Below, piece by piece: positions 16,978-18,124 of a stretch of DNA of 21,262 bases (position 1 is its first letter; the number at the start of each line of letters is the position of its first letter). The DNA is from a virus (taxonomy: Duplodnaviria > Heunggongvirae > Uroviricota > Caudoviricetes): the IMG/VR virus record IMGVR_UViG_2703718838_000007; one strand, given 5' to 3'. Position numbers and translations under genes: made by a program. The notes under the pieces were generated by a model that was not told the DNA's origin, did no database searches, and saw only the letters and a list, made by a program, of their open reading frames with translations.

Positions 16978-17153
16978 ATTTGAACTACATCCCCTACTTT
17001 AACGGCTTGGGCTTCCTCTTCTGATTTCTTCAGAATTGTGGTTATTGACTCCCTTCCATAAGCTGTTACTTTCGCCTCAACCAACCAATACGGCGCAATC
17101 TCGCCACGACTCACGCTTATGATTTCAACGATCCAGGCGTCTATAAGATTCAT
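16974..17153 (-). CDS. Small hypothetical protein (59 aa), not in the ORF track
   Basis: Hand-translated MNLIDAWIVEIISVSRGEIAPYWLVEAKVTAYGRESITTILKKSEEEAQAVKVGDVVQI. Its ATG overlaps the methyltransferase stop (TAATG) and its TGA overlaps the A start (ATGA). Confidence 0.5.
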   Translation of the reverse strand: MNLIDAWIVEIISVSRGEIAPYWLVEAKVTAYGRESITTILKKSEEEAQAVKVGDVVQI

Positions 17154-18124
17154 TAAAAAGCCTCCAGATCGTCAAACGTGCCCGCCGCAACCATCGCGTT
17201 GTAAGCCGCATCACCCATCACGGCGCCACAATCAGGGCAACCGCCGCCGTAACACCCGCAGCAGTCGCAGACAGGCAGCACGCCGATCACTTCTTTGGCC
17301 TTCTGGCGGTTGTCTTTGTCGGTGCTGACGGAACGTTGCACGCTGATTTCGTGCATCTTGAAGGGCTGATAAATCGCGCGGGTGGCTTCGGTGTCGCTGT
17401 TTGAAATGACGACCTTCACGCCATGCTTACGGTTAACTTCCAGCAGTGCCTGGACTAACTGGCGGTGGTTGTCTTCCGTGAATGGTTCGGTATGGTATTG
17501 GGTGAAGTCCGCTGTTTTGCTCTCAGGCAGATAAGGCGGATCGCAGTAAACGAGAACATCGCCACCCGTGACGACCTGTAAAGAACGCTGGAACGGCGCG
17601 CAAAGAAATATTGCCTTTGTATCGTTGGCCTTTTCGGCAAACAGTCGGATTTCATTTTCTGGAAAGTAGACGCTCTTATACTTGCCAAACGGCACGTTAA
17701 AGCCGGTCTTCCGACTGTATCGGCATAAGCCGTTATAACCGTGGCGATTCAGATACAGGAATTGAGCAGCGCGCATAATGCACGCCATTTCAGCGCCATA
17801 ACGCAACCCACCGCTTTTTACCGTACCCACCTGCTTATTGAACGCGGCGCGGACTTCGTTGTATCCCTGCGGGCTGTTCTTACTGTTGAACAGTTCGCGG
17901 GCCGCATCGATCACTAAGTCCGGGTAACGGGTGACTTCCCGATACAGGTTAATAAGATCCGGGTTGATATCAGCCAGCACATAGCGGCGGTATTCAGTCG
18001 CCAGAAATACCGATGCGCCGCCTACGAACGGTTCGATCAGGCAGTCGGCTTTAGGAAGATGCGGCAGCAGGTCAGGGAGGGCACGGGTTTTACCCCCTGC
18101 CCATTTGATGAACGGGCGGATCAT
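17153..18124 (-). CDS. Dam-like N6-adenine DNA methyltransferase with a Cys-rich C-terminal extension
   Basis: ATG at 18124 gives [12 protein letters not shown]; motif I-like [10 protein letters not shown] and catalytic DPPY. C-terminus carries [15 protein letters not shown]. The track's longer ORF starts at an upstream non-ATG codon. Confidence 0.8.
   Translation of the reverse strand: [323 protein letters not shown]

What the first reader, a model, noticed from the sequence alone, without database searches (positions are those of the whole stretch)
17153..18124. Phage Dam-like methyltransferase with a cysteine-rich C-terminal tail
Motifs ([10 protein letters not shown], DPPY) indicate a D12-class N6-adenine methyltransferase, probably GATC-specific, with no adjacent restriction gene; an orphan methylase in the early operon would protect phage DNA or modulate host gene expression. 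The tail [15 protein letters not shown] resembles a metal-binding cluster, which I do not recall being standard for Dam.
Basis: partly seen in the sequence, partly recalled or inferred. Interest (0 to 1): 0.5.

Follow-up and report, generated by a model that had tools for sequence, protein, structure and literature searches.

The report
Prophage Dam methylase with portable zinc-knuckle tail
This is an ordinary stand-alone GATC-type adenine methylase of a P2-like prophage, but its 41-residue cysteine-rich tail is a conserved, uncharacterised mini zinc-knuckle module that also sits in the unexplained part of the RecE recombination nuclease and in several small early phage proteins, so it is probably a docking adaptor rather than part of the enzyme.

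Summary
Window 17153-18124, minus strand, encodes a 323-aa protein. Residues 1-282 are a Dam-family D12 N6-adenine methyltransferase: Pfam 3.7e-63, TIGR00571 7e-81, 49% identical to E. coli Dam, all GATC-contact residues kept, and the predicted fold matches E. coli Dam. It sits in the early operon of a P2/186-like prophage just upstream of replication gene A, with no restriction gene nearby.

The tail (283-323) is not a peculiarity of this gene. At least 83 of the 120 closest Dam homologues have a CxxC...CxxC tail. Only four of the six cysteines are invariant (C286, C289, C296, C299; rubredoxin-like CxxCG...CPDCG). C291 is specific to this window.

The same module (CxxCG-x5-6-CPDCG-xx-MGDATY) occurs in Rac RecE at residues 517-547, in its "unknown function" N-terminal region. 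It also occurs in RecE-like proteins with other nuclease domains, and at the C-terminus of small unknown proteins of Mu-like and lambdoid early regions. No Pfam family or solved structure covers it.

Dam tails usually end acidic plus Phe (here FDDLEAF-COOH), which resembles the SSB C-terminal tip. I infer a metal-stapled docking adaptor. This is not shown.

Verdict: known enzyme, new uncharacterised accessory module, moderate interest.

The parts
17153..18124 (-). dam CDS, 323 codons plus stop (TAA 17155-17153)
   Evidence: ORF list and translation. Annotated as dam, 972 bp, in Enterobacter phage phiT5282H, which is 94.7% identical in DNA.
17279..18124 (-). Catalytic Dam domain, residues 1-282 (motif [11 protein letters not shown] 31-40; DPPY 195-198; DNA-contact residues K7, Y130, N131, L133, R135, P145, Y149)
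   Evidence: PF02086 3.7e-63. TIGR00571 7e-81. E. coli Dam 2g1p 1.8e-70 over residues 3-282. Residue mapping. AF2 model pLDDT mostly above 90 with Foldseek TM 0.92-0.93 normalised to E. coli Dam.
17228..17269 (-). Four-cysteine mini knuckle, residues 286-299 (C286-x2-C289-G...C296-P-D-C299-G); rubredoxin-type CxxCG/CPxCG pair
   Evidence: Invariant C286, C289, G294, C296, D298 and C299 in 66 homologues. The same pattern occurs in RecE 517-533. A Cys-to-His ligand swap is seen in P0158. Only sub-threshold hits to zinc-ribbon Pfam families.
17186..17221 (-). Short helix of the module, residues 302-313 ([12 protein letters not shown]; family consensus MGDATYxEM)
   Evidence: Predicted helix 305-313 in the full-length model and 302-313 in the tail-only model, both at low-to-moderate confidence. 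G304 and Y308 are nearly invariant. The segment is 12/13 identical to RecE despite 10 of 42 nucleotide differences.
17156..17176 (-). Acidic C-terminal tip ending in Phe, residues 317-323 (FDDLEAF-COOH)
   Evidence: 52 of 106 full-length homologues end in F (background F frequency 5.3%), and 75 of 106 end in F, L or W. The tip consensus is G-A-F-D-D-x-E-A-F. pLDDT is below 50 for residues 320-323, i.e. predicted disordered.
18134..18137 (-). Shine-Dalgarno GGAG, 9 nt upstream of the dam ATG
   Evidence: Sequence read directly.
18126..18338 (-). Upstream early ORF (70 aa from ATG; phrog_21140, unknown function); its stop lies 1 nt before the dam ATG
   Evidence: The equivalent 213-bp CDS is annotated in phiT5282H.
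16974..17153 (-). Downstream 59-aa ORF (phrog_8110, unknown); its ATG overlaps the dam stop (TAATG) and its stop overlaps the gene A start
   Evidence: Conserved between dam and gene A in phiT5282H and in IMG/VR loci L033 and L104.
14617..16977 (-). Replication initiator gene A (P2 gpA family), next in the operon
   Evidence: PF05840 9.4e-105.

Best explanation
The gene encodes an orphan, GATC-specific N6-adenine DNA methyltransferase of a P2/186-like (Peduoviridae) prophage. It is made from the early lytic operon together with the replication initiator gpA. Residues 1-282 are a complete Dam enzyme. Residues 283-323 are a separate, portable appendage and are not needed for catalysis: E. coli Dam, and several 277-280-aa relatives that are 65-66% identical over the ~88% of the query they cover, lack it. 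The appendage has three parts. First, a four-cysteine rubredoxin-type mini knuckle that most likely holds one metal ion, Zn or possibly Fe. Second, a short helix (MGDATYxEM). Third, a flexible acidic tip ending in phenylalanine. The knuckle plus helix is a module that temperate phages of Enterobacterales (and Aeromonas) attach to several early DNA-handling proteins. These include RecE-type exonucleases, fusions to a DEDDh exonuclease, Dam, and small proteins of unknown function. I infer that it is a docking adaptor that tethers these proteins to a common partner at replicating or recombining DNA. For Dam, the tip resembles the SSB C-terminal tip (FDDLEAF-COOH versus DFDDDIPF-COOH). That suggests the partner is one of the host proteins that read the SSB tail, or another replisome hub. 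Docking there would let rolling-circle phage DNA, which is unusually GATC-rich, be methylated as it is made. What is shown: enzyme family, fold, contact residues, operon context, conservation and modular distribution of the tail. What is inferred: metal binding, the adaptor role, and the identity of the partner.
For: Enzyme: PF02086 3.7e-63. TIGR00571 'dam' 271.8 bits against a cutoff of 114.85. E. coli Dam structures 1.8e-70. Contact residues K9, Y119, N120, L122, R124, P134, Y138 and DPPY are all conserved, with 49% identity overall. AF2 model pLDDT 83, and Foldseek to E. coli Dam gives E 2.8e-28 with TM 0.92. Context: int, C-type repressor, cox, DUF4761, fil, orf, dam, orf59, gpA. The same order occurs in phiT5282H and in five other prophage loci. 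There is no nuclease neighbour, and the best PADLOC hit is an orphan MTase. GATC occurs 144 times against 75 +/- 8 expected. Tail conserved: invariant C286, C289, G294, C296, D298, C299, and 83/120 homologues carry CxxC...CxxC. Tail dispensable for the fold: tail-less relatives P0066, P0078, P0080 and P0088. Portability: Rac RecE 517-547 reads [31 protein letters not shown]. A profile search of 1.84e9 proteins finds the module in Dam, in RecE-like proteins with three different C-terminal domains, and in 79-190-aa unknown proteins. It occurs in Mu-like and RecT/RdgC early regions and in an Aeromonas phage protein. At least 120 IMG/VR loci carry it. Selection acts at the protein level: the core is 12/13 aa identical to RecE with 10/42 nucleotide differences, mostly at third codon positions. 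Ligand signature: P0158 replaces one Cys by His. Tip: 52/106 end in F; independent tail classes also end acidic plus aromatic (..FVDEDAF..ESEENPIPL..SDNPETW). In relatives, the small ORF occupying the dam-gpA gap ends in a canonical SSB-type tip D[DE]LPF, seen in all 8 database homologues of the 87-aa form and in the 95-aa ORF of L126. The SSB-Ct hexapeptide DDDIPF is a known protein-docking motif (PMC5872125). The tail is predicted to be flexible.
Against: No experiment or structure bears on the tail. Its AF2 confidence is only 54-64, and no curated zinc-finger family reaches threshold. The window's tip has E-A-F where SSB has I-P-F. In RecE the module is internal, and most small carriers end without an acidic-Phe tip. 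So the tip and the knuckle-helix may have different partners, and the SSB-tail analogy applies at best to the Dam subfamily. The window's own 59-aa neighbour lacks the SSB-like tip, and its similarity to the tipped family is weak. GATC specificity is inferred from conserved residues, not measured. R137 of E. coli Dam is K here.
Confidence: 0.55

Rival explanations
1. The tail acts on the enzyme itself. Either the knuckle contacts DNA to raise affinity or processivity, or the acidic tip folds back into the DNA-binding groove as an autoinhibitory DNA mimic that is released on the right substrate, as happens with the acidic tails of SSB and T7 gp2.5.
For: Zinc knuckles often bind nucleic acid. 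The tail is tethered right after the last strand of the catalytic domain, and residues 281-290 have pLDDT 89. The tip is acidic, with a mean of 2.3 acidic against 0.7 basic residues in the last 12 positions. T7 gp2.5 tail regulation is documented (PMC10359462, listed).
Against: The same module works on unrelated carriers: RecE-like proteins, a DEDDh exonuclease fusion, and 79-aa proteins with no known DNA-binding domain. That argues for a carrier-independent partner. The knuckle region has almost no basic residues (one R, and C in this window).
Confidence: 0.2
2. The tail is a stability or turnover signal: a C-terminal degron or protease-adaptor tag that keeps toxic early proteins (Dam, RecE, Kil-region proteins) short-lived.
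For: All carriers are early-region proteins of temperate phages. The free C-terminal residue is strongly conserved, with 52/106 ending in F, as expected for a tag read from the C-terminus.
Against: In RecE-like proteins the module is internal, about 300 residues from the C-terminus. From general knowledge, the tip does not resemble the known ClpX or Lon C-terminal tags. The knuckle and helix would be unnecessary for a simple degron.
Confidence: 0.1
3. The tail is a mosaic joint with no function of its own: a conserved stretch that persists because phage genomes recombine through it, which explains why different domains follow it.
For: Different C-terminal domains follow the module in RecE-like proteins. 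Dam tails come in several swapped classes, including apparent fusions to the N-terminus of the downstream ORF family. P0152 looks like a deletion between two GGGN repeats.
Against: Window and recE differ at 10 of 42 nucleotides in the core while 12/13 amino acids are kept. So the protein sequence is conserved, not the DNA. Four Cys, one Asp and one Gly are invariant across Dams down to 45% identity, and a Cys-to-His ligand swap occurs.
Confidence: 0.1
4. The docking target is the beta sliding clamp rather than an SSB-tail reader; the tip or helix would be a degenerate clamp-binding motif.
For: Many DNA enzymes use short C-terminal motifs ending in L/F to bind the clamp (general knowledge). The window's DLEAF has L, an acidic residue and F at positions 2, 3 and 5 of QL[SD]LF.
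Against: The family consensus at those positions is [DG]-x-E-A-F, with no conserved Q or L. So the defining hydrophobic positions of the clamp motif are not kept.
Confidence: 0.05

Closest known systems
E. coli Dam (PDB 2G1P, 4RTJ etc.; TIGR00571 Dam family, Pfam PF02086)
   Same: 49% identity over 270 aligned residues. Same fold (TM 0.92-0.93). Same motif order, the same AdoMet motif and DPPY, and the same GATC-contact residues.
   Different: Scores 278 bits against the 441-bit cutoff of the housekeeping equivalog NF008152, so it is not the host orthologue. Has a ~14-residue low-confidence insertion around residues 97-113. Carries the 41-residue knuckle/helix/acidic tail where E. coli Dam has only a short unrelated C-terminal stretch.
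dam of Enterobacter phage phiT5282H (Peduoviridae, Novemvirus) and Dam genes of P2/186-like prophages, including the retron-Ec67 element's Dam
   Same: Same gene, same length (972 bp), same position between the small early ORFs and gene A. DNA is 94.7% identical. A Dam ORF in the retron-Ec67 element, which is inserted in a prophage, is mentioned in PMC7826664.
   Different: The window allele has R291C and T307A in the tail. Public records annotate only 'DNA methyltransferase'; the tail is not described.
RecE (exonuclease VIII) of the Rac prophage and lambdoid RecE-like proteins
   Same: Carries the same module at residues 517-547 ([31 protein letters not shown]). The profile hit to NF007259 positions 527-553 came from this stretch.
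   Different: There is no other similarity. In RecE the module is internal, just before the nuclease domain (564-866), inside the N-terminal region of unknown function (PMC11611040), and it is followed by a long acidic linker rather than a free acidic-Phe terminus.
Rubredoxin-type knuckles / short zinc ribbons (e.g. Pfam DZR, Zn_ribbon_3; DnaJ CxxCxGxG)
   Same: CxxCG and CPxCG knuckle signatures with four Cys ligands. Sub-threshold profile matches.
   Different: The two knuckles are only 6-7 residues apart (a glycine-rich loop). No curated family reaches its threshold. The attached MGDATY helix has no counterpart.
SSB C-terminal tip (SSB-Ct, DDDIPF)
   Same: Flexible acidic tail ending in a free Phe. 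F at -7 and D at -6 and -5 match E. coli SSB's DFDDDIPF (the SSB sequence is from my own knowledge; the hexapeptide is from PMC5872125).
   Different: E-A-F instead of I-P-F, and the carrier is an enzyme, not an OB-fold ssDNA binder. The true SSB-type tip (D[DE]LPF) is on the neighbouring small ORF of related prophages, not on this Dam.

Membership tests
D12-class N6-adenine DNA methyltransferase (Pfam PF02086) | Profile score above the curated gathering threshold over the full domain | tested here: met
   214.1 bits against a cutoff of 22, residues 8-265 on profile positions 1-252 of 253.
Dam family (NCBIfam TIGR00571, subfamily model) | Score above the curated cutoff | tested here: met
   271.8 bits against a cutoff of 114.85.
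Housekeeping Dam orthologue (NCBIfam NF008152 equivalog) | Score above the equivalog cutoff | tested here: not met
   278.3 bits against a cutoff of 441. It is a Dam-family paralogue carried by a phage, not the host enzyme.
Dam family | AdoMet-binding motif (FxGxG type) N-terminal and catalytic DPPY C-terminal to the target-recognition region (alpha-group order) | tested here: met
   [10 protein letters not shown] at 31-40, DPPY at 195-198, with the hairpin and contact residues at 130-149 between them.
Dam family | GATC-contact residues of E. coli Dam (K9, Y119, N120, L122, R124, P134, Y138) | tested here: met
   All are conserved: K7, Y130, N131, L133, R135, P145, Y149. R137 is K148 (alignment).
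Dam family | Dam fold | tested here: met
   AF2 pLDDT 83.3 and pTM 0.82. Foldseek to 4RTN/2G1P gives E 2.8e-28 and TM 0.92-0.93 normalised to the target.
Dam family | N6-methylation of adenine in GATC | not testable with these tools
   Needs DpnI/MboI digestion or SMRT/nanopore calling after expression in a dam-minus host.
Orphan (solitary) methyltransferase | No cognate restriction endonuclease adjacent | tested here: met
   Neighbours are phrog_21140 (unknown), phrog_8110 (unknown), Fil and gpA. The best PADLOC model is 'oMTase'. Only this window was examined.
Zinc ribbon / rubredoxin-type knuckle | Two CxxC knuckles with conserved ligands | tested here: met
   C286-x2-C289 and C296-x2-C299 are invariant in 66 sequences, with CxxCG/CPDCG signatures. 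A His-for-Cys swap occurs in P0158.
Zinc ribbon / rubredoxin-type knuckle | Match to a curated zinc-finger family; metal occupancy | tested here: inconclusive
   The window tail has no Pfam hit even at E up to 10. The RecE copy gives only sub-threshold hits (DZR 16.3 bits against 27.3; Zn_ribbon_3 14.7 against 27). There is no PDB relative. Metal content cannot be tested here.
SSB C-terminal tip mimic | Flexible acidic segment ending in [IL]-P-F-COOH | tested here: inconclusive
   Acidic, predicted disordered, with terminal F and F-D-D at -7 to -5. But it has E-A-F, not I/L-P-F. Binding to SSB-Ct clients cannot be tested here.
Beta-clamp-binding motif (QL[SD]LF / QLxLxL) | Conserved Q and hydrophobic positions 2, 4 and 5 | tested here: not met
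   The family consensus at the tip is [DG]-x-E-A-F. The helix reads Y-[NQ]-[EA]-M-[VAL]. Neither Q nor L is conserved.
RecE / exonuclease VIII | Exonuc_VIII N-domain or PD-(D/E)XK nuclease domain | tested here: not met
   Only 26 residues (285-310) match NF007259, at 18.6 bits against a cutoff of 1269. What is shared is a module, not family membership.

The most novel reading that the evidence does not exclude
The CxxCG-(5-6)-CPDCG-xx-MGDATYxEM element is a previously unrecognised, metal-stapled docking module. Temperate phages of Enterobacterales would use it to plug early DNA enzymes (RecE-type exonucleases, DEDDh exonucleases, Dam, small effectors) into one host replication/recombination hub. 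In the P2-like early operon it would work together with SSB-tail mimicry: an acidic-Phe tip on Dam, and canonical D[DE]LPF tips on the neighbouring small protein of related phages. If true, this would also assign a first function to part of the long-unexplained N-terminal region of RecE, the region linked to the better linear-linear recombination of full-length RecE.
Probability: 0.25. Interest if true: 0.7.

Novelty: new variant of a known kind. Interest (0 to 1): 0.45.

Why it matters
The enzyme itself is routine. P2-like prophages commonly carry an orphan Dam, presumably to keep fast-replicating, GATC-rich phage DNA fully methylated. That would protect it against GATC-directed restriction, MutH nicking and SeqA sequestration.

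The value lies in the tail. It defines a small, sharply conserved module that recurs on unrelated early proteins of P2-like, lambdoid and Mu-like phages, including RecE, a workhorse of recombineering whose N-terminal ~560 residues still have no assigned function. No database family or paper in the searched library describes it.

If it is a docking adaptor, it identifies a host hub that several phage families target. It would also give a handle for improving RecET recombineering or for directing enzymes to replication forks. The SSB-tail-like tips in this operon are a directly testable lead for the SSB-interactome field.

Tried and rejected
1. tblastn of the 46-aa tail against 50,697 phage records found only phiT5282H, because the query is short and low-complexity filtering is on. 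It was replaced by a profile search and a degenerate DNA pattern scan.

2. A word-indexed search with the 43-aa RecE segment returned only 6 short fragments.

4. Literature searches found nothing on the tail. The queries were RecE + zinc, 'CPDCG', P2-like + Dam, Fels-2 + adenine methylase, SSB tail mimic, and phage orphan Dam. One search was polluted because 'rece' matches 'recent'.

5. Pfam at E up to 10 and PDB profile searches of the tail gave only generic sub-threshold zinc-ribbon hits.

6. AF2 on the tail alone gave pLDDT 60. Only the helix is predicted. This is uninformative for the knuckle, since no metal is modelled.

7. I tested whether tail-less Dams encode the tail as a separate downstream ORF. 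They do not: the L126 ORFs are unrelated to the knuckle.

8. I considered recent DNA transfer between recE and dam as the source of the shared segment. I rejected it because 10 of 42 core nucleotides differ.

9. Clamp-binding motif reading: rejected on the family consensus.

10. Homology of the window's 59-aa ORF to the SSB-tipped 87-aa family is only weak (E 0.023 over 12 residues), and the tipped family has no PHROG. I therefore treat the two as positional counterparts only.
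Full report
**What is there**

The finding's coordinates hold a minus-strand ORF. Its ATG is at 18124-18122 and its TAA stop at 17155-17153, giving 323 codons. A GGAG lies 9 nt upstream of the ATG. The ATG follows the stop of the preceding ORF by one base. The dam stop overlaps the ATG of a 59-codon ORF, and that ORF in turn overlaps the start of gene A. The gene is therefore translationally coupled inside an operon.

**Context**

The window is a P2/186-like (Peduoviridae) prophage.
- Late genes identified: tail protein I, baseplate J, a virion morphogenesis protein (tail S family), small terminase, P2-type capsid, scaffold gpO, large terminase and portal.
- Early region: integrase, an HTH repressor, then divergently cox, DUF4761, Fil, an unknown ORF, dam, orf59 and gpA.

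The closest sequenced phage is Enterobacter phage phiT5282H. It is 94.7% identical in DNA and annotates the same 972-bp gene as dam. Five further prophage loci show dam in the same place, immediately upstream of gene A. No nuclease is adjacent. The best PADLOC model for the protein is an orphan methyltransferase.

**The enzyme**

Residues 1-282 are a complete Dam-family enzyme.
- Pfam PF02086: 3.7e-63.
- TIGR00571 'dam': 271.8 bits against a cutoff of 114.85.
- The housekeeping-Dam equivalog NF008152 is not reached: 278 against 441 bits.
- E. coli Dam crystal-structure sequences match at 1.8e-70 over residues 3-282.
- Identity to E. coli Dam is 49%.
- The E. coli Dam residues that contact GATC or intercalate are all conserved: K9, Y119, N120, L122, R124, P134 and Y138. 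So is DPPY. R137 becomes K.
- An AF2 model has pLDDT 83.3 and pTM 0.82, and it superposes on E. coli Dam with TM 0.92-0.93 normalised to the target.

GATC specificity is thus very probable but not measured. The window holds 144 GATC sites against 75 +/- 8 in shuffles. The phage does not avoid the site; it is rich in it.

**The tail is conserved, and common**

Of the 120 closest database homologues, 83 carry CxxC...CxxC after the conserved ...KEVIGVL end of the catalytic domain. Of these, 73 carry CxxC...CPDC, and 52 continue with an MGDATY-like segment.

In a 66-sequence alignment spanning 45-99% identity to the query, C286, C289, G294, C296, D298 and C299 are invariant. G290, G293, G295, P297, G300 and G304 are nearly invariant.

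- C288 is G in 40/66 sequences.
- C291 is R in 56/66, including in the two closest homologues listed (P0001 and P0002, 99% and 97% identical). In this window it is a single-allele change.

The conserved pattern, CxxCG ... CPDCG, is the rubredoxin-type pair of knuckles. It is spaced here by only a glycine-rich loop of six to seven residues.

Tail-less relatives exist (277-280 aa; P0066, P0078, P0080 and P0088 are 65-66% identical to the query over the ~88% of it that they cover). E. coli Dam has no counterpart of the tail. The tail is therefore not part of the catalytic machinery.

**The tail is a portable module**

The NCBIfam and PHROG scans gave an unexpected hit of residues 285-310 to exodeoxyribonuclease VIII. 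Reading Rac recE from E. coli K-12 shows the match at residues 517-547...[34 protein letters not shown].... This lies just upstream of the nuclease domain. A 2023 review places that domain at 564-866 and describes the N-terminal domain as of unknown function (PMC11611040).

A profile of 18 tails was searched against 1.84 billion representative proteins and gave 50 hits at E below 1e-3. Carriers include:
- Dams;
- RecE-like proteins in which the module precedes a PD-(D/E)XK domain, an Rv2179c-like DEDDh exonuclease, or another C-terminal region;
- 79-190-aa proteins of unknown function that carry the module at their C-terminus.

One small carrier lies between kil and gam in a Mu-like early region. 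Another lies next to RdgC in a RecT-containing early region. One carrier is from an Aeromonas phage.

A degenerate DNA pattern for CPDCGxxMGDATY found at least 120 IMG/VR loci, about 110 of them RecE-like and 10 Dam.

Several observations point to constraint on the protein rather than on the DNA.
- The window's core differs from recE at 10 of 42 nucleotides, yet 12 of 13 amino acids are the same. That argues for protein-level constraint rather than recent DNA exchange.
- One carrier (P0158) has His in place of a knuckle Cys. This is a typical metal-ligand substitution.
- No Pfam family covers the module. Only generic zinc-ribbon models appear, below threshold.
- No solved structure contains it.
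- Searches of the paper library found no description of it.

**Shape of the tail**

In the full-length model, the segment 281-290 is confident (pLDDT 89). The knuckle loop and the rest score 54-64, with a helix at 305-313 and a tip below 50. The tail folded alone gives pLDDT 60 and a helix at residues 302-313. The picture is a small metal-dependent knuckle, a short helix and a flexible end. No metal is modelled, so the knuckle itself is not informative.

**The tip**

Anchoring the 106 full-length homologues at their C-termini gives these figures:
- 52 end in Phe, against a background F frequency of 5.3%;
- 75 end in F, L or W;
- the consensus is G-A-F-D-D-x-E-A-F-COOH.

Other tail classes, with different cysteine-rich middles, also end acidic plus aromatic...FVDEDAF...ESEENPIPL...SDNPETW. 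This resembles the SSB C-terminal tip. The hexapeptide DDDIPF is a docking motif for many genome-maintenance proteins (PMC5872125). E. coli SSB ends DFDDDIPF (from my own knowledge), against FDDLEAF here.

A related observation turned up while checking neighbours. In related prophages the small ORF between dam and gene A is 87-95 aa. It ends in DDDLPF, DDELPF, NDELPF or SDDLPF in the loci read and in all eight database homologues. That is a canonical SSB-type tip. The window's 59-aa ORF at that position lacks it and is only weakly similar.

Some Dam homologues have tails reading ...W/F-x-G-F-D-P-A-x-G.... These look like fusions to the N-terminus of that small-ORF family.

**Mechanism proposed**

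Shown:
- an orphan Dam-family enzyme with intact GATC-reading residues;
- expression inferred from operon structure, alongside the rolling-circle initiator gpA;
- a 41-residue appendage that is conserved, dispensable for the fold, modular and shared across unrelated early proteins.

Inferred:
- the four invariant cysteines hold a metal that staples a tiny knuckle;
- knuckle plus helix is a carrier-independent docking element;
- in the Dam subfamily, the acidic-Phe tip engages a pocket of the kind that reads SSB tails.

Docking of this kind would place the methylase at replicating DNA. There, host Dam (which general knowledge says is scarce) could not keep up with a GATC-rich rolling-circle product.

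I put about 0.9 on the enzyme assignment, about 0.7 on metal binding, about 0.45 on an adaptor role and about 0.25 on an SSB-tail-reader as the partner.

**Rivals**

- An intramolecular role, either DNA contact or acidic autoinhibition.
- A turnover tag.
- A functionless mosaic joint.
- A clamp-binding motif.

The modular distribution argues against the first. The internal position in RecE argues against the second. The synonymous divergence and invariant ligands argue against the third. The family consensus argues against the last.

**Verdict**

The methylase is already known in kind and is annotated in close relatives. The tail is real, common in this clade and uncharacterised. Its link to RecE and to small early proteins is the part worth a follow-up. 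Novelty: new variant of a known kind. Interest: moderate.

Noticed in passing
window 12822-14541 (minus strand): A RosmerTA toxin-antitoxin defence pair: RmrT (197 aa, 13948-14541; PADLOC 1.6e-94) and RmrA (370 aa, 12822-13934; HTH plus M78 peptidase; 9.1e-206). It sits between gene A and the portal gene. From my own knowledge, P2 carries its variable cargo genes (tin, old) at this position.
   Followed up: partly
L130 4442-4705; L126 4645-4932; proteins P0199-P0206; window 16974-17153 for the positional counterpart: In related P2-like prophages the small ORF between dam and gene A (87-95 aa) ends in DDDLPF, DDELPF, NDELPF or SDDLPF-COOH, a canonical SSB C-terminal tip. This holds in all 8 database homologues. 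The family has no PHROG or Pfam match. The window's 59-aa ORF lacks the tip and is only weakly similar (E 0.023).
   Followed up: partly
whole window: GATC is about 1.9-fold over-represented: 144 sites against 75 +/- 8 in dinucleotide-preserving shuffles, with none of 100 shuffles reaching 144. That is one site per 148 bp.
   Followed up: no
L128-L131 (genes immediately upstream of dam); P0130: Several related prophages have an Rv2179c-like/RNase_T 3'-5' exonuclease gene directly upstream of dam. The same exonuclease domain follows the zinc-knuckle module in the 823-aa lambdoid RecE-like proteins. L128 and L129 also carry a C5-cytosine methylase gene between dam and gene A.
   Followed up: no
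window 17252-17254 (codon 291) and 17204-17206 (codon 307): This allele has Cys at 291, where 56 of 66 homologues (including the two closest listed, P0001 and P0002) have Arg. It has Ala at 307, where 51 of 66 have Thr (MGDATY becomes MGDAAY). These are two changes inside the conserved module, of unknown consequence.
   Followed up: partly
Dam homologues P0070, P0087, P0095, P0100, P0107, P0109, P0114, P0020, P0043: The C-terminus of this Dam clade is a swap zone. At least five tail classes occur, including apparent fusions to the ...GFDPAxxG... N-terminus of the downstream small-ORF family, and a longer cysteine-rich class (..CCPGIAACEEGWSFDCRGNCDICEPSDNPETW).
   Followed up: partly
window ~17786-17836 (residues ~97-113 of Dam): A ~14-residue insertion relative to E. 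coli Dam (..[18 protein letters not shown]..) with pLDDT below 50 at residues 103-109. It lies between helices of the catalytic domain. Its function is unknown.
   Followed up: no
P0152 (756 aa RecE-like protein): This protein lacks the first CxxC. It joins ...SGANAGGGN directly to [13 protein letters not shown], as if by deletion between two GGGN-coding repeats of a RecE-like gene. It is an example of rearrangement through the module's glycine-rich loop.
   Followed up: no
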